Shown: piece after piece, positions 2 through 32,175 of the stretch
Layout: every line of letters starts with the position of its first letter
How positions within the stretch are numbered: position 1 is the stretch's first letter
Assembly (NCBI GenBank): GCA_964493305.1
Contig: CAZBLW010000002.1
Coordinates: forward strand, 258,521-322,520
Reading direction: 5' to 3'
Length of the DNA: 64,000 bases
Source: an uncultured Gammaproteobacteria bacterium
Lineage (GTDB): Bacteria; Patescibacteriota; Patescibacteriia; S139-126
Position numbers and translations under genes: made by a program
Notes under the pieces: generated by a model
Database searches by the model: none
Told to the model about the DNA's origin: nothing
The model's input: the letters and a program-made list of their open reading frames with translations, nothing else

Positions 2-2302
2 CGTATCAGGGCCGGTGCCAGCCAAGGGTCAAACAATTTATTTGAAATTCAAGATGCCACGGCCGCTTACGCTTTACTTTTTACTTCAACCCAAGAGTTA
101 CGCGTTTATGCCACCAGCTCCGGGCAGTATGTAGCTATGTTCCATGATGGCACCAATGGTAAAATCATTACCTCCAGTGGTGACTTGGAAATTGGTAGCG
201 GTGGTGGTGACTTACGCGTGTATGATAGTAGTGGAGTTGATTATATCCAAATCACCCATGATGGCACTGATGCCAACCTGGCACTCAATGCCGGAGTATT
301 CCGTATGAGTACCAGTACAGTCACTGATGGCACTATCAAGACTGGTGGTGGCAATGCCCAAGGTTATAACTCTTTTGGTACAGGTAGCCCTGGTCAAGCT
401 GCTATTGCCTCGAGCTCTGATGTTTATGTAGCGGGTGAATTGGAAGTGGATGGCGTAGCTTATCTGTCCGGTGGTACTGCTTGGACACAAGGTGACTTTG
501 CCGAACGAGTAACAATTTTTGAAGCTTCGGCTTTACCTGGTGATTTGATTGTGGCCAATGATTTAGGTGGAGAGGCCAGAGGTAGGTTATCTTATAGTGC
601 CAATTCCAACAAAATATTGGGTGTCATTTCAACAGCGCCAGCAGGAATTTTGAAAAATGATGCGCCCGGTGAACCACTTGCTCTCACTGGAACTGTACCA
701 GTCAAAGTTACTATAGAAAATGGTAATATCCGCCGCGGTGATCAACTAACCTCTTCTGCCAGTGTGCCGGGTGCTGCTATGAAAGCGACTACTTCCTCAG
801 CTGGAACTGTAGGTATTGCTTTGGAAGATTATACAGCAAGCTCTACTGGTTATGTGACTATACTTCTAAATATCAACAATAAGTTTGATCCTATTTCACA
901 ACTGGCTCAAGCTGACAAACAAACTACTACCAGTACTGATAGCACTGCCAGCTCAACCGCATCCACCACCTTGGTTGTTATCAACAATTCCACCACCACG
1001 ATTGCCACTACTACCATTCAAGTCATCAACAACACCACCAACAACAACACGCAAATCGTAGTAATTGATTATGAAGAGTTAGCTAATATCAAAGTAATGG
1101 GCCAAGCAGTCTTTGCCGGTTTAGTAAAAGTAGTGGATGCTGAGTTTTCCGGTCGGGTAATGGTGAAGGGTGACATAATTGTAGCAGGGGACATTGATTT
1201 GTCTGGTGCTGTTACTACTTGGTTCTGGCAAGATATAGCTACTTCTACTTTGGTAACATCTAGCGAACAAATCCAGTTGGGCGATGCCGTAGCGATTATG
1301 GGCGAAAATACAGTGGTGCCAATGTGGGCTAATACTTATGAGTTTAAACCCGCAGTTGGTATAGCTGTGGCCCTTAAACCTTTTGCTTCACTATCGAATG
1401 AAGAAATTGCGGCAATGCCAGAAGGATTGAAAGTAAAATACCAACAAATTTTGGATGAGTTAATAGCGGCAAATACCGCTACTTCCAGTACTTCCACACA
1501 AAACATTGTTATTCGTACTGACAACCCAGCCTTTAGTGATTTCCGAATGGTCAAAGTGGCTATCAGCGGTATAGTTAAAGGTTATCAAAATTTGATTCCA
1601 GGTAGTAGATATTATCTGGCCTTGGATGAAGATATTTCTCGGCAAAAAGCAGTAATAGATACGGGTGATAATGAGTTGATTGATTTGATAAATCAAACCG
1701 AGGCATTACTCAGTGAGGCCAGTGCTTTGACTGGCACTTCAACTACTAGCACTACTGGTACAGTTGCCGGAGAAGAAGAAGTAGTTGATAATAGTTTAGC
1801 CAAAGTCAGTCGCACCATAACATATCTGGAACCAGCCGAGCAGGATGCTAAGTTGCAGGTGATTGGTATTGCCAAATCACGCAGTGAACTACTGATACAG
1901 CCCAGCTTCAATTACTCTACTTACAGAGATGGTTATTTATCCTGGGATTATGGTTCTCTCTCAACTGCCACTGCTACACCAACCAGTTCAACTCCATTTG
2001 TAAACAATCAACCGATTGTGCCGGTTTATATTCCTATTATTACTCCAACTCCTACGCCTACATCCAGCCCGACTAGTACTGCCAGTACCACCACTTCAAC
2101 TACTACTTCTACTACTACATCAACCACTGGCACTTCAACTGAGGAAATAATAGAAGACGTAGTAGTAGATGATAATGCCAACCCAGTTGGAGAAACAACC
2201 AGTATAGAAACCACGACCACCACTGATACAACCAGTAGTACCACTAGTGGTGATTCCAATTTATTGCAACCAGCTGGTGGGGGAATACAGGGAAGTATAT
2301 AA
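2..2302 (+). CDS. 5'-partial gene. The reading frame is open from window position 2, and the first ATG is at 137. Encodes a Ser/Thr-rich, probably secreted cell-surface protein with S/T/N low-complexity linkers.
   Basis: No stop in frame 2 from nt 2 up to the ORF-track start at 137. Long ORF with poly-Thr/Ser linkers (TTTSTDSTASSTASTT, TSTTTSTTTSTTG). Antisense ORFs in this span are low-complexity artefacts. Confidence 0.55.
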   Translation, partial: RIRAGASQGSNNLFEIQDATAAYALLFTSTQELRVYATSSGQYVAMFHDGTNGKIITSSGDLEIGSGGGDLRVYDSSGVDYIQITHDGTDANLALNAGVFRMSTSTVTDGTIKTGGGNAQGYNSFGTGSPGQAAIASSSDVYVAGELEVDGVAYLSGGTAWTQGDFAERVTIFEASALPGDLIVANDLGGEARGRLSYSANSNKILGVISTAPAGILKNDAPGEPLALTGTVPVKVTIENGNIRRGDQLTSSASVPGAAMKATTSSAGTVGIALEDYTASSTGYVTILLNINNKFDPISQLAQADKQTTTSTDSTASSTASTTLVVINNSTTTIATTTIQVINNTTNNNTQIVVIDYEELANIKVMGQAVFAGLVKVVDAEFSGRVMVKGDIIVAGDIDLSGAVTTWFWQDIATSTLVTSSEQIQLGDAVAIMGENTVVPMWANTYEFKPAVGIAVALKPFASLSNEEIAAMPEGLKVKYQQILDELIAANTATSSTSTQNIVIRTDNPAFSDFRMVKVAISGIVKGYQNLIPGSRYYLALDEDISRQKAVIDTGDNELIDLINQTEALLSEASALTGTSTTSTTGTVAGEEEVVDNSLAKVSRTITYLEPAEQDAKLQVIGIAKSRSELLIQPSFNYSTYRDGYLSWDYGSLSTATATPTSSTPFVNNQPIVPVYIPIITPTPTPTSSPTSTASTTTSTTTSTTTSTTGTSTEEIIEDVVVDDNANPVGETTSIETTTTTDTTSSTTSGDSNLLQPAGGGIQGSI

Positions 2303-2958: not shown

Positions 2959-3930
2959 ATGATATTTAGTAAAAAGAAAAAAATTACGAAAGATTACATT
3001 TATCTCCTGGTGATATTAGGGTTGGTAATTTTCAATATATTTTGCTTGAGTAGATTATCCAATCCGGAAATTTTTATAGATAAATATGGAAAGTTGTATC
3101 CTTTTATTGATTTTTCCCGCAATTTTATACCGCAAGAGTTTTATTTGTCCAATCTGCAACCTTTGAGAAATAGTTTAAACGAACTAGTCAGCCAAGAACA
3201 GTCCCAAGGCAATCAAGTAAGTATTTATTTTGAGTATTTAAATACCGGCGGCAATATTTCCATCAATCAAAATTTGCAGCTGATTCCGGCCAGTCTCAAT
3301 AAACTACCAGTGGCGATGGCGGCGTTGGATAAAGTGGAAAAGGGTGAATGGTCTCTGACTGACAGGTTGGTATTATTGCCGGAAGATGTGGATTCTAATT
3401 TTGGCACATTACACCAAGAACCACTAAATAGCAGTTTTACCATAGAATTTTTACTGAAAGAGATGTTGCAAAAATCAGACAATACTGCTCTCAATATTTT
3501 ACTGAGAAATGTGACGGTTGACGGGGTGATAAAAATTTTAGATGAAATTGGTTTGCAGGAATTATTTGACGAGCGGGGAAATATTACGGCCAAAGAATAT
3601 TCGCAATTATTTCGTTCTTTATATACGGCAAATTTATTGAACCGCGAGTATTCGCAACTTTTATTGTCCTGGCTGACCCAGACCGAGTTTAATGAGTTTA
3701 TTTCCCATAATATTCCGGCAGAAGTTCCGGTGGCGCATAAGTTTGGTTTGAACATGGATTATTTGGTTTTTGCTGATTCCGGAATTGTCTATTTACCAAA
3801 CCAGCCTTACCTACTGACAGTTTTAGTCAATCCTGAAAACAGTATCACGGCCGATAGTGCTCTTGGGGAAGCTGGAGAAATAATGAATGAAATTTCAGTC
3901 ATTATTTATAAATTTTTAAATGAACAATAA
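2959..3930 (+). CDS. membrane-anchored class A beta-lactamase-like serine hydrolase (PenP/penicillin-binding fold)
   Basis: N-terminal TM helix. Motifs in class A order and spacing: S-x-x-K (ASLNKLPVAMAA), SDN (QKSDNTALNILL, compare SDNTAANLLL in TEM), a Glu-containing omega-loop-like TEFNEF, and KFG in place of KTG (VAHKFGLN). Confidence 0.65.
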   Translation: MIFSKKKKITKDYIYLLVILGLVIFNIFCLSRLSNPEIFIDKYGKLYPFIDFSRNFIPQEFYLSNLQPLRNSLNELVSQEQSQGNQVSIYFEYLNTGGNISINQNLQLIPASLNKLPVAMAALDKVEKGEWSLTDRLVLLPEDVDSNFGTLHQEPLNSSFTIEFLLKEMLQKSDNTALNILLRNVTVDGVIKILDEIGLQELFDERGNITAKEYSQLFRSLYTANLLNREYSQLLLSWLTQTEFNEFISHNIPAEVPVAHKFGLNMDYLVFADSGIVYLPNQPYLLTVLVNPENSITADSALGEAGEIMNEISVIIYKFLNEQ

Positions 3931-6900
3931 TTTCAAAAAAATTAAATATTTTTTTGTTCCGGTATTGGTTTTTTTGATGTTGATTACCGGTATTCCTTTG
4001 GATGTGCAGTTGAATGAGCGCGGGCGCATCGTGGACACCATGTATTTAGCAATGAAAGGCCAAGTCAATTTTTCTGATTTTTATTTTGGTAATACCGCCC
4101 GCGCCGAGACCAAAACCATTATTTTGAATTTTACCCAAACGATTTTGACCGAAGGCAATACCTGGACCGTGCCGCTTGATTGGGATAATGCATCCAATAC
4201 CATAGAAGTAATTGGCGGCGGCGGCGCGGGGTGGACGGATACGGCCGGTACCAATGGCGCTGGCGGCGGTGGCGGTGGGGCATATTCCAAGTCGGTCAAT
4301 GTCACTTTAAGTGCCGGAGCGACTGTTAGTTATAATATAGGTAATGGTGGCAATGTTTATTCAGTAAATGGTGGGGATACTTATTTTTGTAACTCCACCA
4401 CCAATTGTGCTTCTATCGGTGGTAGTGCGGTAGTAGTTGGTGCTAAAGGTGGCTTGGGCGCAATCAATGCCACTGGTGCGCAAGGCGGGGCAACTTCAAC
4501 AGGAGTAGCAACCGGAACTGGCTCTGTAAAATATAAAGGAGGTAATGGTGGAACAGGTAATGGTCGCGGTGATTCTGGTGGTGGTGGAGGTGGGGCCGCA
4601 GGCCCCAATGGCAACGGTGGTAATGGCGGTGATGGTAATAGTAATACTACCTATGGTCATGGCGGCGGCGGCGGCGGAAATGGCGGCGGCGCAAATGGCG
4701 CTTCAGTGAGTGGCAATCCGCCCAGCCCAAATCAAAGTGGTGCCGGGGGAAATAATTATTTAAATACTGGTGGCGGTGCAGGTGTAACTAGTGGTGATGG
4801 TACCAATGGTACAGCTGGCGGTGGCGGTGCAGGTGGTTTTGATTCCAATGACGGAGGCAACGGCGGTGATGGTCAGGAATGGGGAGAAGTTGGCTCTGGC
4901 GGCGGCGGTGGTGGAACCGGGGATACTTCAAGCACAGTTGGTTACGGTGGTGATGCCGGTTTTTACGGCGCGGGTGGTGGTGGCGGACTTATTGGAGGAC
5001 GTGGTGCTCCAGGTATAATTATTATTACTTATGGTTATAACCAACCAACCAAAACTATTTGGACTGTTCCAAGTGATTGGAACAATGCTTCCAACACCAT
5101 AGAAGTAATTGGTGCTGGTGGGGCTGGGTATACAGCAGTTGACAGCGGTGGTGCTGCCGCTGGTGGCGGTGGCGGTTATTCCAAATCTATCAATGTATCT
5201 CTAACTGCTAATACACAAGTAGCTTATCAAATTGGCAATGGTGGTAGAAAAAATGGGCGAGGTAGTGCTATAGCTGGATTGTCAGGAGGTGATACTTATT
5301 TTTGTAATGCTACTTCAAACTGTACAACGATTGCAGGTAGTGCAGTTCGAGTAGGTGCCAAAGGTGGCACGGGTGGTACCAGTGCAACCACTGGCGGAAG
5401 AACTGGTGGTGCAGCTGCTAGTGGAGTTGCTTATGCAAATGAAGTATTAAATGGTAGTGGTAGCCAAAAGTATAGCGGTGGTACGGGAGGAGCTGGTACT
5501 GGTACTGGTGATAATGGTGGTGGCGGTGGTGGTGCAGCTGGCCCCAATGGCAATGCCGGTGCTGGTGGAAGTGGTACCAATACTGCAACTTATGGTGGTG
5601 GTGGTGGTGGTGGTGCTGGTGGCACAGCTTGTAGTGGTTCACCGTGTGCTGGTAGTGGTCCAAATACCACTACAGGTGGTGCGGGAGGTAATGGTCCGGC
5701 TGGTACTGGCGGTGGCGCTGGAGGTAATCCTGGTCAAAATGGTGGTTCTGGTACAGGTGGTGGAGCGGGAGGTGGAAATAATATTTCCGGTGGAGGCTTT
5801 GGTGGCAGTGGAAGTGAGTGGACTATTGCCGGTGCCGGTGGTGGTGGTGGTGGTGTTGGTGATAACTCAGGTGCTGAAACCACTGGTGGTAATGGTGGTT
5901 TGTTTGGTGCTGGTGGCGGTGGTGGTAAATGGGGAGGTTGGGGAGCTAACGGTTTAATAGTTATTACTTATGTGCCCGCCGTATTTAGTCAATCGGCTTA
6001 TCGATTTTTTAACAATACAAATTCTACTGTTGTGGGAGCGCCTTTTACAACTCAAAATACAACCACAACAATTCCTTATAATTCTCAGTTTCGTTTACGT
6101 ATATTGATTCATGTAGCTGATGCACCTTTGGGTACCAGTGGTCGTGATTTTAAGTTACAATTTGTTGATATGGGCACCGGTACTTGTGCTGCTCCTAGCG
6201 GCGGTAGCCCGTCAAGTTATACTGATGTCACTTCTACTACAGCCATAGCTTATTTTAATAACCCCACACCAGTAGATGGAGATGCTTTAACTAGTACCAC
6301 TACCGACCCTACTCATAGTGGACATTCGTTGGTGAATCAAACATATGAAGAAGCTAATAATTTTACCAATTCTCAATCGCAGATTGATCCTGATTCGTAT
6401 GATGGTCTTTGGGATTTTTCTTTAGATGATTATAATGCTGAAATTGGTAAGACTTATTGTTTTCGTGCAGTTGAAGCAAATAGTAAACTTTTATCTAGTT
6501 ATAATATTTATCCTGCTGTGACTTTTATTAATTTCCCTCCTACCATCACGTCTGCTACGGACGCTCCTGATCCAGTGAACGCTGGTTCCAATATTACTTT
6601 TACGGTTGATTGGTCAGATGAAAATGCTGATAATACTCGTTCGTTTATCTGTAAAACCAATTCTTTTACTTCATCAACTCTTACTTGCCCTGGGGGAGCT
6701 TGGGCATCATCAACTTCTTTTGCTACCACTGACCCGGTTGATATGGTATATACCACGCAAGTAGCTGATGGTGGTACCAACAATTACTATGCCTTTACTT
6801 GTGATAATGATAATGCTTGTTCGTCTGGTAGCCCTGGTACTTTTACCGTTAATCGCTACCCAAGTATTACTTCGGTTAATGACGCTCCTGACCCAGTGAA

Positions 6901-7903
6901 CGCTGGTTCCAATATTACTTTTACGGTTGATTGGTCAGATGCTGATGCCGGCGATTTAACCCGTTCGTTTATCTGTAAAACCAATTCCTTTACTTCCTCG
7001 ACACTTACTTGTGATGGTGGTTGGTGGTCATCAAGTACCGCATTCGCTACTACTGATCCGGTAGATGTTATTTATACTACCCAAGGAGGGGATATTGGCA
7101 CCAATAACTACTATGCTTTTACTTGTGATAATGACAATGCCTGTTCGTCTGGCAGTCCTGGTACTTTTGATGTCAATTCAGGTAATTCCGCCCCAACTAT
7201 AAATTCAGCTACTGATTATCCCGACCCAGTCAGTGTTGGCAGTGCAGTTACTTTCACAGTTAATTGGTCAGACGCTGACACTGGTGATTTAACGCGCACT
7301 TTTATTTGTAAAACCAATTCTTTTACTTCATCTACTTTGACTTGTGACGGCGGGTCTTGGGCGTCAAGTACATCTTTTAGCTCTATTAATATAACAGAAG
7401 TTTTCTATACCGCTTTACTAGGTGATTTAGGAACCAAAAACTATTTTGCATTTGTGTGTGATGATAGTAATGCTTGTTCCAATGGTAGTGCTGGTACTTT
7501 TACAGTGGTTAAGAGTGCACCAATTATAAATTCAGTTATTGATGCCCCTGATCCAGTAGTCGCTAGTAATAATATTACCTTTACAGTTAATTGGACTGAT
7601 CCGGAAGGGGACAATGCTAGGTCTTTTATTTGTAAAACCAATGTTATTACCACTTCAACCCTAACTTGTCCAGGTGGTTGGTATGCTTCCAGTACTTCCA
7701 TGGCTGCCACCAATCCAGTGCAAATATCCTATACCGCTCAAGCTGGGGATGCTGGACCTAGGAGTTATTATGCTTTTGTCTGTGATAGTGATAATAAATG
7801 TTCTACAGCTACAGTTGGTTCATTTTTGGTCAACTTAACTAGTTCAGTCAGTGGATATATTGAAGGGATATTCAATATCCTTGGTGATGTATTATTTAGA
7901 TAA
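3920..7903 (+). CDS. giant glycine-rich membrane-anchored surface protein. It has two ~370-aa Gly-rich modules (phage-tail-fibre-like glycine-rich domain) followed by four ~110-aa Cys-containing tandem repeats.
   Basis: 1327-aa ORF with an N-terminal TM. Each Gly-rich module starts WTVPxDWxNASNTIEVIGxGGAG..GGGGG(A)YSKS and ends GAPGIIIITYGY / GANGLIVITYVP. This matches the T-V-P...VIGGGGGG...RIIW architecture I recall for the phage tail-fibre glycine-rich domain. C-terminal repeats: DAPDPVNAGSNITFTVDWSD..RSFICKTNSFTSSTLTC..YYAFTCDNDNACSSGSPGTFTV, four copies. Confidence 0.75.
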   Translation: MNNNFKKIKYFFVPVLVFLMLITGIPLDVQLNERGRIVDTMYLAMKGQVNFSDFYFGNTARAETKTIILNFTQTILTEGNTWTVPLDWDNASNTIEVIGGGGAGWTDTAGTNGAGGGGGGAYSKSVNVTLSAGATVSYNIGNGGNVYSVNGGDTYFCNSTTNCASIGGSAVVVGAKGGLGAINATGAQGGATSTGVATGTGSVKYKGGNGGTGNGRGDSGGGGGGAAGPNGNGGNGGDGNSNTTYGHGGGGGGNGGGANGASVSGNPPSPNQSGAGGNNYLNTGGGAGVTSGDGTNGTAGGGGAGGFDSNDGGNGGDGQEWGEVGSGGGGGGTGDTSSTVGYGGDAGFYGAGGGGGLIGGRGAPGIIIITYGYNQPTKTIWTVPSDWNNASNTIEVIGAGGAGYTAVDSGGAAAGGGGGYSKSINVSLTANTQVAYQIGNGGRKNGRGSAIAGLSGGDTYFCNATSNCTTIAGSAVRVGAKGGTGGTSATTGGRTGGAAASGVAYANEVLNGSGSQKYSGGTGGAGTGTGDNGGGGGGAAGPNGNAGAGGSGTNTATYGGGGGGGAGGTACSGSPCAGSGPNTTTGGAGGNGPAGTGGGAGGNPGQNGGSGTGGGAGGGNNISGGGFGGSGSEWTIAGAGGGGGGVGDNSGAETTGGNGGLFGAGGGGGKWGGWGANGLIVITYVPAVFSQSAYRFFNNTNSTVVGAPFTTQNTTTTIPYNSQFRLRILIHVADAPLGTSGRDFKLQFVDMGTGTCAAPSGGSPSSYTDVTSTTAIAYFNNPTPVDGDALTSTTTDPTHSGHSLVNQTYEEANNFTNSQSQIDPDSYDGLWDFSLDDYNAEIGKTYCFRAVEANSKLLSSYNIYPAVTFINFPPTITSATDAPDPVNAGSNITFTVDWSDENADNTRSFICKTNSFTSSTLTCPGGAWASSTSFATTDPVDMVYTTQVADGGTNNYYAFTCDNDNACSSGSPGTFTVNRYPSITSVNDAPDPVNAGSNITFTVDWSDADAGDLTRSFICKTNSFTSSTLTCDGGWWSSSTAFATTDPVDVIYTTQGGDIGTNNYYAFTCDNDNACSSGSPGTFDVNSGNSAPTINSATDYPDPVSVGSAVTFTVNWSDADTGDLTRTFICKTNSFTSSTLTCDGGSWASSTSFSSINITEVFYTALLGDLGTKNYFAFVCDDSNACSNGSAGTFTVVKSAPIINSVIDAPDPVVASNNITFTVNWTDPEGDNARSFICKTNVITTSTLTCPGGWYASSTSMAATNPVQISYTAQAGDAGPRSYYAFVCDSDNKCSTATVGSFLVNLTSSVSGYIEGIFNILGDVLFR
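6538..7830 (+). repeat. four in-frame tandem repeats (~321-335 bp each) inside the 3920-7903 gene. Repeats 1 and 2 are almost identical at the nucleotide level.
   Basis: 'acgctcctgacccagtgaacgctggttccaatattacttttacggttgattggtcagatg' recurs at 6561 and 6882. Diverged copies start at ~7217 and ~7541. Confidence 0.8.
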
Positions 7904-7906
7904 TTC

Positions 7907-10900
7907 ATGAACAAAAAATTTGTACAATTTATCGCCAATAAATATTTTCTGATTTTGATTTTCATCTTTTTAGTGCTGTCTGGGGCAATTTTTGCCTGGC
8001 AAATTTTTACCAATAACTCACAAATGAGTTTGCAGGTTAGTGTGCCGGACAACTATCAAGATAAGATTGTTTACTCCTACCAAGGACAGTCTTTTGCTAT
8101 TCAACCAATTGCTGCCAGTAGCGTCAATGTGAAAAAGAAATTTTTTGCTGAGGAGTATGATTATCAAGATCCTTATAGTAAGGTTGATGTTAAGCGGTTA
8201 GTATCAGAAACCGGAGTCAAAGAAGATATTGTTTTACGCGAACCAGGACATCCTATGCAGTTTAAGTTTCAGCTTGATTTGGGTGAGTTTGATTATGTCA
8301 AAGATTTGACTGGAAATATTACTTTGACCAGCAAAACAGATAAACTCGAGGAAAAAGATTTACAACGAAAATTTTTCTTGCCCGCACCGTTTTTTATTGA
8401 TGCCGCTGGTAAGCAGAGTGATACTAGTGCAATTGATTTACGAATAGATGATAAAGGTATTATTACTTATACCTTAAATGAGTCGTGGTTAGCGCAAGCT
8501 CAGTACCCAGTTGTACTTGACCCGTCAGTGGAATTGGTAATTTTAAATGTGCACTCTTATCCGCAAACCGGTGATGAATGGGTGGTTGATTTTACCACCC
8601 AAGGCACGGCTGATTTAATCATTTCTCCAGCTGATCAAGCCACGATTGATGATGACAGGTTTGTTGGACTTTATTGTGATGGTGAGGAAAGATTGCCAGA
8701 AATATACAAAAATGACGTAATTTTTTATGCCAATTGGTCGTGTGCTGGTGTGGGTAGAGTAGTTCATTTTACTGAGTATGCTGGTAAACACACTTTAAAG
8801 TTTGAATTTGCAGGACAAGTGGCTTATGCCTACAACTCTGATTGGTGGAATCCGTCTTGGACTAAGCGCAAAAAAATATTTTTTGATACTACTACTTCAG
8901 CTACCACTTCCAATTTGATTGATTTTCCTTTGAGTGTGCAGTTGAATTCTACCAGAGTTGACTATACTGCCACACAAAATAGCGGTCAGGATATTCGGTT
9001 TGTAGATACTGACGGTACCGAACTACCTTATGAAATAGAGTCCTGGAATGAGTCGGGCACTTCTACTTTGTGGGTAAAAGTACCTCAGGTAAATCAAAAC
9101 ACTACGGCCGATTATATGTGGATGTATTATGGTAACTCAACGGCAGCTGATAATTCAACAACTACAGGAGTGTGGGATAATAATTATAAACTAGTGCAAC
9201 ATATGGATAATACCGTTACTAGTACTGACAGCTTTGTTGATTCTACCAAAAATTATAATCACGGTACTGGTTTTGGTGGAGGTTCATTGGCAGCAACTAG
9301 CAGTGGAAAGATAAATGGAGCTTTTAATTTTGACGGTACTGACGATTATGTTGAAGTATCCAATGATAGTAGTCTAAGCGGAATGAATGAACTCAGTATG
9401 TCAGCTTGGATTTATCTTGATCAACTACCTACAACCGTAGCGCATGATGTTGAAATTTTAGTGAAAAGACATAGTACTACCCCTTGGAACTCATATTATT
9501 TTTATATTGTGGGTACAGCTTGTACAAATGATAATGTTATGTATGTCTCATTGAAAAATGAATTGGAAGCAGCGGAATATCGTTGCGCCAGTTCAAGTTT
9601 AGCCGTCGGTCAGTGGTACCATGTTGCGGTTACTTGGGATGGATCAGATCTTCATTTTTATCTAAATGGCTCATATGATGATGAGGGGGCTACCAATTTT
9701 TCTGGTACTAGTGTTTTTTCTTCTGATGGTTCCTTTTATATAAATGGTGAAGATAGTGGGCCGGGTAGAATGGATGGCAAGATTGATGAAGTACGTATAT
9801 CAAGTATTGACCGGGGAGTAAATTGGATAAAATTTGAATATTGTAATCAAACTGATAGTTGTACCACTTATGGAACGGAGGAAACTGATGTGTGGTGGAA
9901 TACCAAGTGGTTGAAGCGGAAAAAGATTATGTTTGATACCACTACCTCAGCTACTACCACTAGTTTAGTAGATTTTCCCGTAGCTGTGCAGTTAAATAGT
10001 TCACGTATTGATTATGCTTATACCAAACCATATGGTGAAGATATTCGTTTTATTGACTCTGATGGCAAAACTTCACTGTCATATGAAATAGAAAAATGGG
10101 ACAAAACCGCCACCTCTACTTTTTGGGTGAAAGTACCAACCATTGATCGCAATTCCAACTCCGATCATATCTGGCTTTATTACAACAATCCTAACGCTTT
10201 GGATAACTCCACTACCACAGGAGTGTGGACCAATGGTTTTGTCGGTGTCTGGCATATGAACAACGCATACAATGCCTCAACCACTGATTCAACCAAAAAT
10301 GCTTTGCATGGCATTTCCAGAAATCTCGCAGCCACTTCTACTTATATGGTTGGTAGTGCTTTACAGTTCAACGGTTCAACTGCTGATGTAAAATTGCCAA
10401 TCAGTACACTACTCAATCCCGAATACACTTTAACCATAGAAGCTTGGGCCAGAACCAATTCATTGTCAGGTGAACAATCAATTCTTGGTCGAACTTTATC
10501 ATATGAACTTTTAGCCATGAGAACTTGGGCGCCAACTGGCAGACCATTGGCTCCAATTTATTATGCTTATGATACCTCAATGGATTTGGAATCAGCTACC
10601 GCACTAACTCCAGGACAGTTTACCTATTTGGCAGCTACTTACAATGGCACTACTACGGGAAAAGCGATTTTATATCAAGATACTATTATTAAACATACTA
10701 TCACTACCACCACCCCAGAAAGTTTATATCAAAATTCGGCTAACACTTATATTGGTGATTCGCAGTGGGATGATAATTCTGGCTTCAGTGGTGTAATTGA
10801 TGAAGTAAGAATTTCTGATACAGACAGAACTAAAAGTTGGATAAATTTTACTTATTGTAATATTAAAGAAACTTGTAATACTTACGGCAAAGAACAAACC

Positions 10901-13900
10901 TATGGTTGGTGGGATACAAGGTGGCAAAAACGAAAACCTATTTATTTTGATACCACCACTTCTGCTACTACTTCAGATTTAGCCAACTTTACTGCTCTAG
11001 TAAGGCTGAATTCCTCGCGGATAAATTATACCTATACCCAAAACAGCGGTCAGGATATTAGGTTTGTAGATGCTGATGGATTGACCGAGCTACCTTATGA
11101 GATTGAAAATTGGAATGAGTCAGGCGAGTCAATTGTCTGGGTGAAAGTGCCAAAGATTGATAAAAATTCTAAGACTGATCATATTTGGATGTACTATGAT
11201 AACCCCTTGGCTAGTGATAATTCTACTACCACTGGTACTTGGAATAGTAACTATGTTATTGTCCAACATTTACAAGAGACAACAACCGGAGCAAGTGATT
11301 TTAAAGATTCAACTAGCTATGGAAATGATTCAGTTGCTGTCACTTTTGGTGGTACTGGTTCTAATCCTGATGCAGTAGGTAAAATAAATGGTGCTATCCA
11401 ATTTGATGGTACTGATGACACTATCAGTTTTGGTGATAGTGATGATTTTAGCGCTACCAATGGAGTAACTGACCGGCCGATATCAGTTTCGTTTTGGGTA
11501 AAACCCGATACATTTGGTGCTGGTGGTCAAGATAGAATTATGCAGAAGTATGATAGTAGTGGAGAGTGGGAAATTTGGAATAGTGACACTGGAGCGGTCA
11601 ATTTTGCCTTCTTTGATCAAACAACCTATGACAACGGTATTGGTCGAGCGGTTGATTTTGCACTTACTGAAGGTCAGTGGGATTATCTGACTATGACCTA
11701 CAATGGTAATGAAACCAATTCCGGGATAAAAATTTTTAGAAATGGTGTAAGAATTGATGATGCTGATTATGCCAACGGCACTTATCCTGGTTCTTCCAAT
11801 ACTGATTCACAATTTAGAATGGGTTGGAATTATGGCTCTGATTATTGGGATGGATTTTTAGATGAAGTAAGAATTGCCAATATAGAATTGGACCCCAATT
11901 GGATTACTTTTGAATATTGTAATATGAATGATGCTTGTGCATCATTTGGTGCTGAAGAAGCTCAAGCTATCAAGATTTATCGCAGTATGGGTTTCAATAA
12001 CACTTCTCCCTTAGCTTCGGGTTCGAGTACGGTTGAGCTTACTATCAGCGGATTTGACGCCACTTTTAGCGCTGGTATGCCAATGAGAGTTGGAGTAGGA
12101 GATGCGATTCAATATGACTCTGATAGTAACGGTTCAGTTGATAGTATTGTATTTATTCATAAAAGAGTTTCTTCAACTCAATATGAAATAAGAACTGCCA
12201 ATGGCACTTCCACACCCACCGCCGTAACGGCTGATAAAGATTGGCGAATTTATCGGGCTTATACAACTTCAGATAATGCGGTTTCGGGAGTGGAAAATAC
12301 CGGTATTGCTTCAGCTTTGAGAAATTTTGATACTTGGTCGTTGGGTGATGATTTAGTTACCAAAAATTACCAATGGAATATCGCTCTCTATGCTGATGCA
12401 GTAGAAGTTGTCACCACCACAAGTCTTATAGATACATCCAATTGGACAACTGGACCAAAAAATTATCTTAGATTTTTTACACCAGTTAATAAAAATGAGG
12501 TTGGTGTATCCCAAAGGCATAATGGACGTCTGACTGACACTGCTTATAAAATATTAATTAATGTCGCGGGTGATTATCAAGATGTATACCAACAGCAAGC
12601 TAATTATATTAGAATCGAAGGTATTCAGTGTGAAATTTCTAGCCCCACTGCTTATATTGGAATACACTGTATAAATTTAAATCGGTCAACCGGCGCAGCT
12701 TATATTAGCGAAAATATTTTTAAAGGAGAAAGCGGGGTAATACCTTACCAAGGAGGTATTAAGTTTTATCATTCTGCTCCAGCAGGCATAACCGCTTATA
12801 TTTGGAATAATATTTTTTATGATTTTAGATATCCATCTGGTACTGAAGCTTATGGAATATCTATTAATCAAGCTGATTCTATAGGTTATGTTTATAACAA
12901 TACTTTTTACAACTGTAACGAAGCAATTCACGGAAGACTTTTGTTAATTCAGATTACTAACAATATCATGCAAAACACAAATACTTGTTATAGTACTTGG
13001 AATGGTTCCAACGCTTATACGGATTATAATATGTGTGACAATAGCAATGGTTCGCCTGGTTCTCATTCTTTAAACAATGTAACAGTAAGTTTTGTCAGTT
13101 CTACTGCCAGTGATTTTCGTCTCAAGTCTAGTGATTCAGTTGCCAGGGATAAGGGTAAAGATATGTCAGGGGACGTTAACTTACCTTTTAACAATGATAT
13201 TGAAAATCAAACTAGACAGGGTCCTTGGGATATTGGTGCTGATGAATATGTTGTCACATCACTTGGTACGCAAGGTTGGTGGCAATCTGCTTGGAAGAAT
13301 CGCATGAAGATAACTATTGATAACTCTTCCCAAAGTGAAACCCTGACCAATTTTCCTTTGGTGGTGACTTTATACTCCAGCAGAATTGATTACACTCAAA
13401 CCCAAAACAGTGGTCAGGATATTAGGTTTGTAGCTTCAGATGGCACGGAACTTCCTTATGAAATTGAAAAATGGGATGAAGCAGCAACTTCTACTGTCTG
13501 GGTGAAAGTACCCCAAATAAATGGTGGGTCAAATGCCGGATATATTTGGATGTATTATGGAAATCCTGATGCTGCTGACAATCAATCTCCCAATGACGTT
13601 TGGGATACGAACTATAAATTTGTTCACCACTTGGAAGAAAGTCCAGATGACACAGTGGCTGGTCATTTTGACTCCACTAGCAACAATGCCACTGGCACAC
13701 CTTACAATTTTCAAACTGGTGGCACGGGTACTACCAACGCCACTGGTAAACTGGATGGCGCGGATTATTTTAGTGTTACTACCAACAATGACTATGTAAC
13801 TATTCCAAGCCTAGCCAGTCAGCAGTTGACTGCTTCTGGTACGTTGGAAGCATGGGTGAAGCCAGATTTAACTACTGGGCGAATAGTTACCCATGGTCAA

Positions 13901-14377
13901 CAAAATGGTTTTTGGTTGGGCTATGTATCTTCTAAGTTTAATGTGAATTTATTTAATGGCGCCTTAAACGCCGCTACAACTTCTTATGTAATTTCAGGTA
14001 CTGATTGGTATTATGTAGTTGGTACATTTGGTTATGATGGTGCAACTAAGTATTTACGTCTTTATGTAAATGGATTACTGCAAGATTCGGTTGCTTTATC
14101 AACCAATAATATTAATTATGAAAGCGCTGATTATAGAAGTTGTATAAATGCTTATGGTGATTGTAGTGGTGGTTTTGGTCAGCATACTATTGATGAAGTT
14201 AGGTTATCAAATGTCACTCGGAGTGCTGATTGGATTAAGTTTTCTTATTGTAATATGAATGATAGTTGTTTGGATTATACCCAAAGTGAAGCATTTGGTG
14301 ATAGTACTGCTAGTAGCGGAGGGTCTAGTAAAGTGAAAGGCGGGATACAGATTAAAGGTGGAATTAGGTTTAAGTAA
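7907..14377 (+). CDS. giant (2156 aa) membrane-anchored surface protein: four DUF2341-like plus LamG-like (Laminin_G_3 / concanavalin-A-like) units and a right-handed parallel beta-helix (pectate-lyase-like) segment
   Basis: N-terminal TM (YFLILIFIFLVLSGAIFAW). Recurrent W(W)NxxWxKRKKIxFDTTTSATT..L.DFP..VQLNS.RIDY....SGQDIRF.D.DG.ELPYEIE.W.E...ST.WVKVP.....T.D.IWMYYGN (DUF2341-like), each followed by a jelly-roll ending IDEVRIS...R...WI.F.YCN (LamG-like). Residues ~1600-1760: NNIFYDFRY..YNNTFYNCNEAIHG..ITNNIMQN...SDFRLKSSDS, typical of PbH1 beta-helix ends. Confidence 0.8.
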   Translation: MNKKFVQFIANKYFLILIFIFLVLSGAIFAWQIFTNNSQMSLQVSVPDNYQDKIVYSYQGQSFAIQPIAASSVNVKKKFFAEEYDYQDPYSKVDVKRLVSETGVKEDIVLREPGHPMQFKFQLDLGEFDYVKDLTGNITLTSKTDKLEEKDLQRKFFLPAPFFIDAAGKQSDTSAIDLRIDDKGIITYTLNESWLAQAQYPVVLDPSVELVILNVHSYPQTGDEWVVDFTTQGTADLIISPADQATIDDDRFVGLYCDGEERLPEIYKNDVIFYANWSCAGVGRVVHFTEYAGKHTLKFEFAGQVAYAYNSDWWNPSWTKRKKIFFDTTTSATTSNLIDFPLSVQLNSTRVDYTATQNSGQDIRFVDTDGTELPYEIESWNESGTSTLWVKVPQVNQNTTADYMWMYYGNSTAADNSTTTGVWDNNYKLVQHMDNTVTSTDSFVDSTKNYNHGTGFGGGSLAATSSGKINGAFNFDGTDDYVEVSNDSSLSGMNELSMSAWIYLDQLPTTVAHDVEILVKRHSTTPWNSYYFYIVGTACTNDNVMYVSLKNELEAAEYRCASSSLAVGQWYHVAVTWDGSDLHFYLNGSYDDEGATNFSGTSVFSSDGSFYINGEDSGPGRMDGKIDEVRISSIDRGVNWIKFEYCNQTDSCTTYGTEETDVWWNTKWLKRKKIMFDTTTSATTTSLVDFPVAVQLNSSRIDYAYTKPYGEDIRFIDSDGKTSLSYEIEKWDKTATSTFWVKVPTIDRNSNSDHIWLYYNNPNALDNSTTTGVWTNGFVGVWHMNNAYNASTTDSTKNALHGISRNLAATSTYMVGSALQFNGSTADVKLPISTLLNPEYTLTIEAWARTNSLSGEQSILGRTLSYELLAMRTWAPTGRPLAPIYYAYDTSMDLESATALTPGQFTYLAATYNGTTTGKAILYQDTIIKHTITTTTPESLYQNSANTYIGDSQWDDNSGFSGVIDEVRISDTDRTKSWINFTYCNIKETCNTYGKEQTYGWWDTRWQKRKPIYFDTTTSATTSDLANFTALVRLNSSRINYTYTQNSGQDIRFVDADGLTELPYEIENWNESGESIVWVKVPKIDKNSKTDHIWMYYDNPLASDNSTTTGTWNSNYVIVQHLQETTTGASDFKDSTSYGNDSVAVTFGGTGSNPDAVGKINGAIQFDGTDDTISFGDSDDFSATNGVTDRPISVSFWVKPDTFGAGGQDRIMQKYDSSGEWEIWNSDTGAVNFAFFDQTTYDNGIGRAVDFALTEGQWDYLTMTYNGNETNSGIKIFRNGVRIDDADYANGTYPGSSNTDSQFRMGWNYGSDYWDGFLDEVRIANIELDPNWITFEYCNMNDACASFGAEEAQAIKIYRSMGFNNTSPLASGSSTVELTISGFDATFSAGMPMRVGVGDAIQYDSDSNGSVDSIVFIHKRVSSTQYEIRTANGTSTPTAVTADKDWRIYRAYTTSDNAVSGVENTGIASALRNFDTWSLGDDLVTKNYQWNIALYADAVEVVTTTSLIDTSNWTTGPKNYLRFFTPVNKNEVGVSQRHNGRLTDTAYKILINVAGDYQDVYQQQANYIRIEGIQCEISSPTAYIGIHCINLNRSTGAAYISENIFKGESGVIPYQGGIKFYHSAPAGITAYIWNNIFYDFRYPSGTEAYGISINQADSIGYVYNNTFYNCNEAIHGRLLLIQITNNIMQNTNTCYSTWNGSNAYTDYNMCDNSNGSPGSHSLNNVTVSFVSSTASDFRLKSSDSVARDKGKDMSGDVNLPFNNDIENQTRQGPWDIGADEYVVTSLGTQGWWQSAWKNRMKITIDNSSQSETLTNFPLVVTLYSSRIDYTQTQNSGQDIRFVASDGTELPYEIEKWDEAATSTVWVKVPQINGGSNAGYIWMYYGNPDAADNQSPNDVWDTNYKFVHHLEESPDDTVAGHFDSTSNNATGTPYNFQTGGTGTTNATGKLDGADYFSVTTNNDYVTIPSLASQQLTASGTLEAWVKPDLTTGRIVTHGQQNGFWLGYVSSKFNVNLFNGALNAATTSYVISGTDWYYVVGTFGYDGATKYLRLYVNGLLQDSVALSTNNINYESADYRSCINAYGDCSGGFGQHTIDEVRLSNVTRSADWIKFSYCNMNDSCLDYTQSEAFGDSTASSGGSSKVKGGIQIKGGIRFK

Positions 14378-14465
14378 TTATAATGATTTAAGATTTAAGA
14401 ATAAAGATTTAAGAATTTACCCTTATTTAATTGCCTTGCACCTTAGACAGAAATTAAAAATAAAA

Positions 14466-14650
14466 TGTTTTACCTCTATTTTTTGTCAGTCCCGCGGACG
14501 CGGGATAGCAAAAACTGCCGACCAGCGCTTCCGTTCAGGTAAAATTGCCAACCGTTCGCGCGCCTCTCAAAATCTCTTACGCTTTAGTTGAGAGGCGTAA
14601 CCGCTCACTACTTGGCAATATTTACACTTCAGGAAGCGGAAGGTCGGAAA
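14466..14650. ncRNA. candidate structured RNA / conserved structured element, copy A
   Basis: Second copy at 44052-44250. Shared T-rich leader, GC hairpin, outer stem CCGACC...GGTCGG, conserved stem aattgccaa...ttggcaat, inner stem gcctctcaa...ttgagaggc. Confidence 0.35.
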
Positions 14651-14725
14651 GAAATTCAAAATAAAAATTATAAAATTAAAAAATTCATTAGTTATTAGTA
14701 ATTAGAAATTAGTAATTAAAATATT

Positions 14726-14814
14726 TGTCATTCCGTGCTTGACACGGAATCCAGAAACAAAAATAGATTCCTGCTCGAGTTTATCCCGCACTTGATGCGG
14801 GACAGGAATGACAA
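14726..14814. repeat. MITE-like element, full copy
   Basis: tgtcattccgtgcttgacacggaatccagaaacaaaaatagattcctgctcgagtttatcccgcacttgatgcgggacaggaatgacaa. Confidence 0.7.
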
Positions 14815-14897
14815 GGATAAAAGTTTAAAAATTCAGATTTATTTAAAAATTACAAAATTAAAAATTAAAAAATTCATTAGTTATTAGTAATTAAAAA

Positions 14898-15004
14898 ATG
14901 AAGTTTTCTTTTCCCCAACTAAATATATTAAAGTCCTTAAAACGAGTTCCAGGTAACAAGGAATATAATTGTCATTCCGAACTTGTTTCGGAATCTAAAA
15001 AATA
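14898..15004 (+). pseudogene. orphan duplicated 5' end (about 21 codons, out of frame) of the giant-protein gene family, interrupted by a half MITE
   Basis: atgaagttttcttttccccaactaaatatattaaagtccttaaaacga encodes MKFSFPQLNILKSLKR, homologous to the N-termini at 15005 (MKLKFSKLNIVKTLKR) and 20946 (MHFSFPQLNILNALKR). It is followed by ttgtcattccgaacttgtttcggaatc and a stop, then the real start at 15005. 15005 minus 14898 is not a multiple of 3. Confidence 0.5.
14970..15000. repeat. MITE half-element (first hairpin only)
   Basis: ttgtcattccgaacttgtttcggaatctaaaaaat. Confidence 0.6.
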
Positions 15005-20806: not shown

Positions 20807-20862
20807 AAAATGTTAATTATAAATTGTAAATTTTAAATTATAAATGAATTATAAAATTACAA

Positions 20863-20882
20863 CCTGCCTGCCGGCAGGCAGG
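20863..20882. repeat. perfect 20-bp palindrome cctgcctgccggcaggcagg in the intergenic region between two giant genes
   Basis: Read directly from the sequence. Related to the second hairpin of the MITE (gattcctgc...gcaggaatc). Confidence 0.6.
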
Positions 20883-20945
20883 AATTAAAAATTATAAAAT
20901 TAGTAATTCATTAGTTATTAGTAATTAGTCATTAGTAATTTATCC

Positions 20946-27519: not shown

Positions 27520-27520
27520 A

Positions 27521-27590
27521 ATAAGATTTAAGATGTAAGATTTAAGAATTAAGAATTCATAAATCATACTTCATAAATCAGAAATCATTT
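27521..27590. repeat. 'gatttaagatttaagaat ... attcataaatcatacttcata' intergenic repeat. Second copy at 59048-59118, partial copy at 14381-14420.
   Basis: The 21-mer attcataaatcatacttcata is present at 27545 and 59086, both preceded by gatttaag iterations. Confidence 0.6.
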
Positions 27591-27594
27591 TTAG

Positions 27595-28653: not shown

Positions 28654-28787
28654 AGAATTACGAATTAGGTATTACGAATTAAGAATAAATGAAAAATCCT
28701 TATAAATTAGTCATTTTTATCAGTAATTAGTTATTAGTAATTAGTCATTAATTAATATATTCCCCATTAATAAAATTAATCAAACAT

Positions 28788-29924: not shown

Positions 29925-29976
29925 TCATTTTAGCAATCGAAAAATGTAAATTCACCCAAGTAGAATTTGGTCATGC

Positions 29977-30966: not shown

Positions 30967-30975
30967 ATTAAATCC

Positions 30976-32070: not shown

Positions 32071-32175
32071 TTAAAGCATTTCACTAATTATCGATTTTAT
32101 TGTATAATATAGGCAGGCATATACAGATGTCATGGCCGTCTTTTGTTGTATTAAGCTATTATCTTTATTTCAAAT

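What the first reader, a model, noticed from the sequence alone, without database searches (positions are those of the whole stretch)
3920..7903. Glycine-rich protein with two phage-tail-fibre-like Gly modules and a near-identical internal DNA duplication
Seen: two ~370-aa modules begin TW/TVP.DW.NASNTIEVIG.GGAG..GGGGG.YSKS.NV.L.A...V.Y.IGNGG and end ..GAPGIIIITYGY / GANGLIVITYVP. Established pattern recalled from phage annotations: the glycine-rich domain of many phage tail-fibre-like proteins has exactly this T-V-P..V.VIGGGGGG..(S).V.V..G....V.VG.GG........RIIW layout. Then come four ~110-aa Cys-containing repeats, of which repeats 1 and 2 share about 60 identical nucleotides in a row (6561 vs 6882). 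This implies recent duplication or gene conversion and a substrate for repeat-number variation. A phage-derived fibre module appears to have been recruited into a cellular surface protein, or the module is ancient and shared.
Basis: partly seen in the sequence, partly recalled or inferred. Interest (0 to 1): 0.6.

Follow-up and report, generated by a model that had tools for sequence, protein, structure and literature searches.

The report
Phage-fibre-like glycine modules in surface protein
A large secreted or surface protein of a tiny uncultured (Patescibacteria/CPR) bacterium carries two copies of the glycine-lattice "tip" domain that phages use on their tail fibres, plus a variable stack of Ig-like repeats; it is a real but fairly ordinary new member of a large, already described domain family.

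Summary
ORF 3920-7903 (+) encodes a 1,327-aa protein. It has an N-terminal hydrophobic leader, then two tandem glycine-rich modules. These are 292 and 306 aa (37% Gly, 57% identical), not ~370 aa. A ~185-aa beta-sandwich follows, then four 107-111-aa repeats with four Cys each, and a short conserved tail.

The phage link holds. A profile of the module family hits the cyanophage Pam3 tail-fibre protein gp24 (E=1.7e-8). The AlphaFold model (pLDDT 93.5) matches the Bxb1 tail tip, the Pam3 fibre and 144 predicted viral proteins. Nine of 31 family members hit Pfam Gly_rich_2 (PF21722).

The gene is cellular, not prophage. It sits in conserved synteny with a beta-lactamase-like gene and giant DUF2341/LamG proteins in a Patescibacteria genome.

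The "near-identical duplication" is only a 61-nt tract (60/61 identical; 49 exact). Repeats 1 and 2 are otherwise 78% identical, so this looks like a short gene-conversion tract. Relatives carry 1, 3 or 4 repeats.

The family is large (>7,000 clusters at 50% identity) and multi-module proteins are common. Verdict: a new member of a known kind. The adhesin function is inferred, not shown.

The parts
3920..7903 (+). Whole gene: 1,327-aa multidomain secreted or surface protein
   Evidence: ORF list. Gapless alignment to ortholog P0122 over the first 690 aa, with pN/pS 0.17-0.29. The exact sequence is present in an NCBI 348-kb contig.
3920..4105 (+). N-terminal leader (aa 1-62): basic n-region, a hydrophobic segment (YFFVPVLVFLMLITGIPL), then a conserved 'FYFGNTARA|E' motif. 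Signal peptide or signal anchor.
   Evidence: Direct reading. The same leader occurs in P0122, P0248 and P0130; P0261 shares only the hydrophobic segment and an AQA|ETKTIIL junction, without the FYFG motif. These proteins carry different passenger domains. Cleavage is inferred, not tested.
4163..5038 (+). Gly module 1 (aa 82-373; 292 aa, 37% Gly): TNF-like beta-sandwich base plus a glycine-rich (polyglycine-II-type) lattice
   Evidence: AF2 pLDDT 93.5. Foldseek hits to the Bxb1 tail tip, the Pam3 fibre and ALK and to viral models. Profile hit to Pam3 gp24. 92% identical to the ortholog.
5054..5977 (+). Gly module 2 (aa 379-686; 306 aa, 37% Gly), an old paralogue of module 1
   Evidence: 57% identity to module 1 over 298 aligned residues. 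82% identical to the ortholog's module 2 but about 56-59% to either module 1.
5978..6535 (+). Middle 'QSAYRFFNN' all-beta domain (aa 687-872)
   Evidence: More than 100 homologues at E<1e-25. AF2 pLDDT 97, all-beta. No Pfam or NCBIfam model hit. Only generic Ig/FnIII-type fold matches.
6536..6856 (+). Cys repeat R1 (107 aa, 4 Cys), Ig-like beta-sandwich
6857..7189 (+). Cys repeat R2 (111 aa); closest unit to R1 (84% aa, 78% nt)
7190..7516 (+). Cys repeat R3 (109 aa)
7517..7837 (+). Cys repeat R4 (107 aa), the terminal unit, orthologous to the last unit of P0121 (76% identity)
6560..6620 (+). First copy of the 61-nt near-identical tract (60/61; exact 49-mer from 6572)
   Evidence: Two independent short-read assemblies (L007, L008) are identical to the window except for one mismatch in L008, and both stop at 6601, inside this tract.
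6881..6941 (+). Second copy of the 61-nt tract, in R2
7838..7900 (+). Conserved C-terminal tail TSSVSGYIEGIFNILGDVLFR, ending in hydrophobic plus basic residues
   Evidence: Conserved in P0121 and P0122. Similar ends occur on the three following giant ORFs.
2959..3930 (+). Upstream beta-lactamase/PBP-like gene. It overlaps the target's start by 11 nt and is a probable operon partner.
   Evidence: PF13354, E=1.3e-41. The same gene order and 11-nt overlap occur in ortholog loci L001-L003.

Best explanation
This is a cellular gene of a Patescibacteria (CPR) bacterium. It encodes a large exported, probably cell-surface protein built from modules.

**Domain order**
- After a hydrophobic N-terminal leader come two tandem ~300-aa 'TG-type' modules. 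Each has a small TNF-like beta-sandwich formed by the first and last strands. From it projects a large lattice of extended glycine-rich strands.
- This is the same domain (Pfam Gly_rich_2 type) that forms the distal, receptor-recognising end of the cyanophage Pam3 tail fibre. It also occurs in the Bxb1 tail tip. More distantly it resembles the ligand-binding domain of ALK/LTK.
- Next come one all-beta domain and four disulfide-capable Ig-like repeats. These most likely act as a spacer or stalk. Their number changes between lineages through unequal recombination and gene conversion.
- The protein ends in a short conserved tail that may be a sorting or anchoring tag.

**Proposed function**
The most likely function is binding of a ligand on another surface, for example the envelope of a host bacterium. 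The loops at the far end of the glycine lattices would be the contact surface.

**Shown versus inferred**
- Shown: the domain boundaries, the homology and predicted fold, purifying selection, the cellular context, and repeat-number differences between relatives.
- Inferred: export, topology, oligomeric state, and the binding function.
For: **Domain identity**
- Module 1 finds 243 homologues, many carrying PF21722.
- Nine of 31 family members hit PF21722, best E 8e-11.
- The family profile hits Pam3 gp24 at E=1.7e-8.
- AF2 gives pLDDT 93.5 and pTM 0.92. Foldseek matches the Bxb1 tail tip, the Pam3 fibre and ALK and 144 viral models.
- Pam3 gp24 is described as a TNF-like domain plus a glycine-rich domain responsible for host recognition, resembling S16 gp38 and ALK (PMC9608196).

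**A folded, functional domain rather than low-complexity filler**
- There are no indels against the ortholog over 690 aa, and pN/pS is 0.17-0.29.

**Extracellular display**
- The protein has a hydrophobic leader and four conserved Cys per repeat.
- Some homologous modules are fused to prepilin N-terminal domains (PF07963; P0008, P0025, P0104) or sit in DUF6701/MshQ-like proteins.
- The neighbouring genes encode giant DUF2341/LamG proteins.

**Cellular origin**
- The window carries pyruvate:ferredoxin oxidoreductase (POR), a beta-CASP RNase and a tRNA gene.
- Housekeeping homologues are named Patescibacteria, Peregrinibacteria or Uhrbacteria.
- Synteny is conserved in three other metagenomes.

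**Repeat dynamics**
- Relatives have 1, 3 or 4 units. The terminal unit is orthologous across relatives, while the internal units are most similar within a protein.
- The 60/61-nt tract is specific to R1/R2 of this lineage.
Against: - No binding or localisation data exist.
- The window's own modules fail Pfam's gathering threshold (8.8 vs 24.3 bits). They gave no PHROG or NCBIfam hit and no tblastn hit in INPHARED phage genomes.
- The Gly modules are the most conserved part of the protein between orthologs: 92% and 82%, against 66% for the middle domain and 57% for the repeat. Phage fibre tips behave the opposite way and are hypervariable. This fits a conserved ligand or a structural role better than an arms-race receptor binder.
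- With an N-terminal anchor, the modules would be membrane-proximal and the Ig-like repeats distal. That is an odd geometry for a binding head.
- The Pam3 fibre is a trimer held by an N-terminal helical bundle, which this protein lacks.
Confidence: 0.6

Rival explanations
1. It is a structural envelope protein, for example part of a surface layer, sheath or matrix. The glycine lattices would serve as rigid, protease-resistant building blocks rather than as specific binding heads.
For: - The modules are the most conserved region between orthologs (92% and 82%) and have no indels.
- The gene lies in an island of giant surface proteins.
- It is coupled to a PBP/beta-lactamase-like enzyme that could act on the cell wall.
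- A conserved C-terminal tail is shared in kind with neighbouring giant proteins.
Against: - Every structurally characterised relative sits at a ligand- or host-recognising position (Pam3 gp24, S16 gp38, ALK: PMC9608196; Bxb1 tail tip).
- Fusion of the module to pilin N-termini in relatives suggests display at a tip rather than in a lattice.
Confidence: 0.25
2. It is a phage, prophage or tailocin tail-fibre gene that happens to lie in a bacterial contig.
For: The module is homologous to phage fibre domains. Some family members hit phrog_863, labelled 'tail fiber assembly'.
Against: - No phage structural, packaging or integrase genes were seen among those neighbours that were scanned.
- The protein has a signal-type leader instead of a virion-attachment domain.
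- The gene order with cellular genes is conserved in L001-L003.
- No adjacent fibre-chaperone gene was found.
- Thousands of related proteins, some over 3,000 aa, have non-phage architectures.
Confidence: 0.05
3. The 61-nt identical tract is not gene conversion. It would instead be chance, a nucleotide-level constraint, or an assembly chimera at a repeat.
For: - The statistical support is moderate (P~0.005).
- The tract encodes the most conserved peptide of the unit (DAPDPVNAGSNITFTVDWSD).
- Short-read assemblies break exactly here, so this is a place where a misjoin could occur.
Against: - The same peptide region in R3, R4 and in the units of two relatives is only 39-46/61 identical in DNA despite similar protein sequence. 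There is therefore no general nucleotide constraint.
- The flanking parts of R1 and R2 differ at ~22% of positions, which excludes a collapsed duplicate.
- Independent assemblies from two other samples reproduce the sequence up to the tract, with at most one mismatch.
Confidence: 0.15

Closest known systems
Cyanophage Pam3 tail fibre gp24 (PDB 7YFW/7YPX)
   Same: The domain layout is the same. Edge beta-strands form a TNF-like sandwich from which a lattice of glycine-rich motifs projects. The sequence motifs match at both ends: '..P.D....V.V.GGGG.G' and '..G.QGIIIV.Y'. The profile hit is E=1.7e-8 and Foldseek gives E 1e-4 to 1e-3.
   Different: - gp24 is a 280-aa virion protein with an N-terminal helical trimerisation and baseplate-docking domain, one ~200-aa module with 12 glycine motifs, and a dedicated chaperone gp25 (PMC9608196).
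- This protein has a signal-type leader, two ~300-aa modules in tandem, extra beta domains, and no chaperone gene nearby.
Pfam PF21722 Gly_rich_2 family and 'Glycine-rich domain-containing proteins' of uncultured Caudovirales
   Same: Close homologues of the module carry PF21722. Viral models align over ~330 columns with TM up to 0.75 and 33-39% identity. An IMG/VR contig encodes a 347-aa full-length homologue.
   Different: The window's modules score only 8.8 bits against the Pfam model, whose cut-off is 24.3 bits. They are longer than the 226-position model.
Mycobacteriophage Bxb1 tail-tip glycine-rich (PPII-bundle) domains (PDB 9D93)
   Same: This is the best PDB structural match (chain Qa, E=2e-5). 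The literature describes it as a PPII/polyglycine bundle at the tail tip (PMC13243192; PMC13252515).
   Different: 17-18% identity and TM 0.36-0.45. It is a virion component.
ALK/LTK extracellular TNF-like + glycine-rich (TG) ligand-binding domain
   Same: The supradomain idea is the same. Pam3 gp24 superposes on C. elegans ALK (PMC9608196). ALK and LTK entries appear in the Foldseek list.
   Different: The direct match is weak (E 0.06-0.5, TM ~0.2). ALK is a metazoan receptor kinase, and no sequence similarity was detected.
Ortholog and paralogs in other Patescibacteria metagenomes (P0122, P0248, P0261)
   Same: P0122 and P0248 share the same leader plus a two-module cassette, and P0261 has a shorter leader before the same two-module cassette. 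For P0122 the gene order is also the same, with the beta-lactamase-like gene upstream.
   Different: The C-terminal parts are swapped. P0122 has the middle domain plus one Cys repeat. P0248 and P0261 have other domains.

Membership tests
Pfam PF21722 (Gly_rich_2) glycine-rich domain | Scores above the Pfam gathering threshold | tested here: not met
   Module 1 scores E=2 and 8.8 bits against a cut-off of 24.3 bits, although the match spans profile positions 7-222 of 226. Module 2 and the whole protein give no hit.
Pfam PF21722 (Gly_rich_2) glycine-rich domain | Significant sequence homology to proteins that do pass the model | tested here: met
   P0007, P0009 and P0011 carry PF21722 and match module 1 at E 1e-30 to 1e-31. 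Nine of 31 members of alignment A1 hit PF21722, best E 8.3e-11.
Pfam PF21722 (Gly_rich_2) glycine-rich domain | Edge-strand motifs: N-terminal 'W.VP.DW..(N)TIEVIGGGG' and C-terminal 'G..G(I/L)I(V/I)ITY' enclosing the Gly-rich core | tested here: met
   Both modules have both motifs. The motifs are nearly invariant in A1 and align to the Pam3 gp24 edges.
TNF-like + polyglycine-lattice (TG) fold | Beta-sandwich base with a lattice of extended glycine-rich strands | tested here: met
   This rests on a prediction only. AF2 gives pLDDT 93.5 with 8 short strands, and the rest is non-helix/non-strand at high confidence. Best PDB hits are the Bxb1 tail tip and the Pam3 fibre. Coordinates could not be inspected for phi/psi angles.
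Phage tail fibre / receptor-binding protein | Encoded among phage tail or baseplate genes | tested here: not met
   The neighbours are a beta-lactamase-like gene, DUF2341/LamG giant proteins, WxLIP-like proteins and POR. There are no structural PHROG hits.
Phage tail fibre / receptor-binding protein | N-terminal virion-attachment or trimerisation domain and a nearby fibre chaperone | tested here: not met
   The N-terminus is a hydrophobic leader. The module-1 model (aa 74-375) has no helices. No chaperone-like gene is adjacent.
Phage tail fibre / receptor-binding protein | Binds a host-cell surface receptor | not testable with these tools
   This needs binding assays.
ALK/LTK TG supradomain | Significant structural superposition on the ALK/LTK glycine-rich domain | tested here: inconclusive
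   Foldseek gives E 0.06-0.5, probability 0.1-0.6 and TM ~0.2. The relationship rests on the published Pam3-ALK similarity (PMC9608196).
Ig-like / FnIII-like bacterial surface repeats | Beta-sandwich fold in tandem copies | tested here: met
   AF2 pLDDT 97, all-beta. There are 233 PDB matches at E<=1e-3 to tandem Ig/FnIII proteins such as RbmA, Siglecs and CbhA Fn3. No specific Pfam or NCBIfam family was matched.

The most novel reading that the evidence does not exclude
Patescibacteria, many of which live attached to other microbes, may use the same glycine-lattice recognition head as phages to recognise a host cell envelope. The conserved cassette of leader plus two TG modules, coupled to a PBP/beta-lactamase-like enzyme, would then be a dedicated host-attachment or envelope-engagement device. 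Its module would be exchanged between phages and episymbiotic bacteria.
Probability: 0.2. Interest if true: 0.65.

Novelty: new member of a known kind. Interest (0 to 1): 0.33.

Why it matters
The result shows that the glycine-lattice 'tip' domain, known structurally from phage fibres and from ALK/LTK, is abundant in cellular surface proteins. The family has more than 7,000 clusters at 50% identity. It includes tandem and multi-module giant proteins of candidate-phyla-radiation bacteria.

If these modules prove to be host-recognition heads, they would be candidate attachment factors for organisms whose host interactions are almost unknown. They would also be a case of phages and episymbionts sharing one recognition scaffold.

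In practical terms, the region illustrates three things:
- Compositional bias hides such domains from routine HMM annotation.
- A 49-nt exact repeat is enough to break short-read assemblies at this gene.
- Repeat copy number here should be checked with long reads.

Tried and rejected
- **Direct family scans.** Pfam, PHROGs and NCBIfam on the whole protein returned nothing. In pieces, only a sub-threshold PF21722 hit appeared. The leader, middle domain, repeats and C-terminal tails gave nothing in NCBIfam.
- **Single-sequence PDB searches.** The whole protein gave only a marginal Pam3 hit (E 0.057). Module 1 alone gave noise. A family profile was needed.
- **tblastn of module 1 against 50,697 phage genomes.** No match, probably because of low-complexity masking and divergence.
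- **The search for related loci with the family alignment.** It yielded only one genome locus (Bradyrhizobium, L004) and one viral locus (L005). Those scans therefore say little about distribution.
- **Exact look-up of the target protein in the contig index.** This failed. The upstream gene was used instead.
- **Organism name.** It could not be obtained from cluster look-ups. Placement rests on named homologues of one housekeeping protein.
- **Middle domain plus repeat.** PDB profile search gave nothing significant. Foldseek gave only generic Ig-like matches.
- **The Bxb1 structure paper** (PMC12124961) is not held.
- **Rejected readings.** A prophage origin is rejected because there is no phage context. 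Disordered low-complexity sequence is rejected because of pLDDT 93.5, the absence of indels, and purifying selection. An antifreeze-type role for the glycine lattice was considered but nothing supports it.
Full report
**What is in the sequence**

The region is one ORF, 3920-7903 on the + strand, encoding 1,327 aa. Its translation divides as follows.
- A basic and hydrophobic N-terminal leader, aa 1-~30, with a conserved motif FYFGNTARA|E ending at aa 61.
- Glycine-rich module 1, aa 82-373.
- Glycine-rich module 2, aa 379-686.
- An all-beta 'QSAYRFFNN' domain, aa 687-872.
- Four repeats of 107-111 aa, each with four conserved Cys, at aa 873-1306 (nt 6536-7837).
- A 21-aa tail ending ...GDVLFR.

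The local GC peak (0.52) and GC skew (0.34) at 4-6 kb come from the GGN glycine codons, and so do the spurious overlapping ORFs 5418-5663(-) and 5451-5957(+).

**Check of the observation**

They are 292 and 306 aa, each 37% Gly, not ~370 aa. They are 57% identical over 298 aligned positions and only 40% identical once Gly-Gly columns are excluded.

The four Cys repeats are confirmed.

The DNA identity is 60/61 nt, at 6560-6620 vs 6881-6941, with a 49-nt exact run. Overall R1 and R2 are 78% identical in DNA and 82% in protein. Third-codon positions are 60% identical. The title phrase 'near-identical internal DNA duplication' therefore applies to a short tract, not to a repeat unit.

The tract is unlikely to be chance. 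It contains 16 consecutive identical codons, with P~0.005 when synonymous states are shuffled among identical-residue codons. It is not a general nucleotide constraint either. The same peptide region in R3, R4 and the units of two relatives is only 39-46/61 identical in DNA. The best reading is a short gene-conversion tract between R1 and R2.

**What the glycine modules are**

Routine annotation fails. Pfam, PHROGs and NCBIfam give nothing for the whole protein. Module 1 alone gives only a sub-threshold PF21722 (Gly_rich_2) match, E=2, though it spans nearly the whole model.

Homology searching resolves this.
- Module 1 finds 243 proteins at E<=1e-3. The shared pattern is '..FLTSGTSWTVPSDWNSSNNTIEVIGGGG ... 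G.GAQGIIVITY', and many hits carry PF21722.
- Nine of the 31 sequences in the family alignment A1 hit PF21722 (best E 8e-11). Eight hit phrog_863.
- The A1 profile hits exactly one solved protein, reported as two PDB sequences (7YFW and 7YPX), the cyanophage Pam3 tail-fibre protein gp24. The score is E=1.7e-8, and both the N-terminal strands and the C-terminal 'GKQGIIIVQYFS' strand align.

The Pam3 paper describes gp24 as follows (PMC9608196).
- It has a TNF-like beta-sandwich.
- Its loops extend into a four-layer lattice of 12 glycine-rich motifs.
- That lattice is proposed to recognise the host through its variable distal tips.
- It is structurally similar to S16 gp38 and to the ALK ectodomain.

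AlphaFold2 on A1 gives a confident model of module 1 (pLDDT 93.5, pTM 0.92). It has a few short strands and otherwise non-helical, non-strand backbone. Fold searches with this model gave the following.
- Against the PDB, the top matches are the Bxb1 tail tip (9D93 Qa, E 2e-5) and the Pam3 fibre (E 1e-4). ALK and LTK glycine-rich domains follow weakly.
- Against predicted viral structures there are 144 matches at E<=1e-3. The best are from uncultured Caudovirales, with TM 0.72-0.75 and 33-39% identity. Many are named 'Glycine-rich domain-containing protein', and some 'tail fiber protein'.

An IMG/VR contig with a major-head-protein gene encodes a 347-aa full-length homologue (hhalign 99.9%, 47% identity).

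**Cellular, not phage**

The window also encodes pyruvate:ferredoxin oxidoreductase, a beta-CASP RNase and a tRNA-Pro. The RNase's named homologues, at 49-53% identity, come from Patescibacteria, Peregrinibacteria, Gracilibacteria and Uhrbacteria.

The gene's neighbours are these.
- Upstream is a membrane-anchored beta-lactamase/PBP-like gene at 2959-3930 (PF13354, E 1e-41). It overlaps the target's start by 11 nt.
- Downstream are three giant DUF2341/LamG proteins.
- Further on is a WxLIP-like and dockerin-containing cluster.

No phage structural families were found nearby.

An ortholog, P0122 (1,009 aa), occurs in three other metagenome assemblies with the same upstream gene, the same 11-nt overlap and a giant downstream gene. 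Against it, identities are 72% for the leader, 92% for module 1, 82% for module 2 and 66% for the middle domain. There are no indels over the first 690 aa, and pN/pS is 0.17-0.29. These are folded domains under purifying selection, not disordered low-complexity sequence.

**How common is this**

An exhaustive profile search of 1.84 billion cluster representatives finds 7,154 proteins at E<=1e-3 and 1,016 at E<=1e-30. Many top hits have 2-6 matched stretches in proteins up to 3,467 aa. The tandem arrangement is therefore not unusual.

The cassette of leader plus two modules recurs with different C-terminal domains in P0248 and, with a shorter leader, in P0261. In other relatives the module is attached to a prepilin N-terminal domain (PF07963). 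In still others it is followed, across the same junction, by the 'QSAYRxFNN' domain in DUF6701/MshQ-like proteins. Those contexts point to extracellular display.

**C-terminal half**

The middle domain has more than 100 homologues but no Pfam or NCBIfam model. AlphaFold2 models it together with repeat 1 as two beta-sandwiches (pLDDT 97). Fold matches are generic tandem Ig/FnIII proteins.

The number of repeat units differs between relatives: four here, three in P0121, one in P0122 and one in P0130. The last unit is orthologous across proteins (R4 vs P0121 unit 3, 76%). Internal units are most similar within a protein (R1 vs R2, 84%). This pattern indicates lineage-specific duplication or homogenisation.

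Two independent short-read assemblies are identical to the window over 4.0-4.3 kb except for one mismatch in L008. Both stop at position 6601, which is 30 nt into the 49-nt exact repeat. That is the behaviour expected of a k-mer graph branching at a true repeat. The tract is thus reproducible in other samples and is the weak point of the assembly. Copy number itself could not be verified.

**Mechanism**

The best-supported reading is an exported surface protein. Its two TG-type modules would be ligand-binding heads, and its Ig-like repeats a spacer of variable length. The fold and homology are shown. Export, topology, oligomeric state and binding are inferred from analogy and context.

Two observations argue for caution.
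- The modules are the most conserved part of the protein, whereas phage fibre tips are hypervariable.
- With an N-terminal anchor, the modules would lie next to the membrane.

A structural envelope role is therefore a serious rival. A prophage origin is unlikely.

**Verdict**

It describes a new member of a large, already catalogued domain family whose structure is known from phage fibres. Interest is moderate to low. It would rise if these modules were shown to mediate host attachment in Patescibacteria.

Noticed in passing
window 7838-7900, 14330-14374, 20780-20803, 25923-25946: Four consecutive giant ORFs end in a hydrophobic or aromatic residue followed by a basic one...GDVLFR...KVKGGIQIKGGIRFK...GGFSSYFR...GGFSSFFR. 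Of 374 related proteins fetched, 24 end in a hydrophobic residue followed by a basic one, and about a dozen of these show a repeated '[VI][KR]GG' motif before the end. No Pfam or NCBIfam model matches. This may be an undescribed C-terminal sorting or anchoring tag.
   Followed up: partly
window 3920-4105: The N-terminal leader has a hydrophobic segment, 'G(I/F)P(L/V)D', then 'FYFGN.A.A|E' about 40-60 aa from the start. It is shared by proteins with different passenger domains (P0122, P0248, P0130); P0261 has a shorter leader that lacks these two motifs but ends in an AQA|ETKTIIL junction. This suggests a common, unusually long export signal or pro-region.
   Followed up: partly
window 2959-3930: This is a membrane-anchored class-A beta-lactamase/PBP-like gene. 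SLNK, SDN and KFG motifs are visible in the translation. It overlaps the target's start codon by 11 nt, and the pairing is conserved in ortholog loci L001-L003.
   Followed up: partly
window 5978-6535: The 'QSAYRFFNN' all-beta domain has more than 100 homologues in Patescibacteria, DUF6701/MshQ-like, DUF2341/LamG and other large proteins. It matches no Pfam or NCBIfam model. It follows a Gly_rich_2 module across the same junction in P0164 and P0166.
   Followed up: partly
window 7907-25949: Three giant genes encode proteins of 2,156, 1,933 and 1,667 aa. They are made of repeated DUF2341 plus Laminin_G_3 units, with toxin-receptor-binding-like and sialidase-N-like segments.
   Followed up: no
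window 4163-5038 vs L001: Synonymous divergence of module 1 from the ortholog is about half that of the leader and module 2 (pS 0.28 vs 0.53-0.54). This could reflect codon constraint on the Gly runs or a more recent exchange of module 1 between lineages.
   Followed up: no
window 26407-34739: A cluster of secreted and membrane-anchored ORFs includes a WxL-interacting-protein peptidoglycan-binding domain (29977-30966) and a DUF4215/dockerin protein (30976-32070). Several ORFs end in '...VVY(V/I)(A/T)TA(N/Q)(Y/FD)'. The arrangement resembles Gram-positive WxL surface loci.
   Followed up: no
L007 and L008 (ends correspond to window 6601): Logan short-read contigs from SRR9016294 and SRR31189354 are identical to the window, apart from one mismatch in L008. 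Both terminate inside the 49-nt exact repeat. The same strain therefore occurs in several samples, and the repeat breaks k-mer assemblies.
   Followed up: yes
window 137-2302: This is a 721-aa Ser/Thr-rich ORF with long poly-T/S tracts. It matches no Pfam, PHROG or PDB sequence.
   Followed up: partly
L004 5866-11265 (Bradyrhizobium aeschynomenes NZ_JABFDM010000012.1): A 1,799-aa ORF in a cultivated alphaproteobacterium contains a relative of the module (52% identity over the first 91 residues). The family therefore also occurs outside candidate phyla.
   Followed up: no
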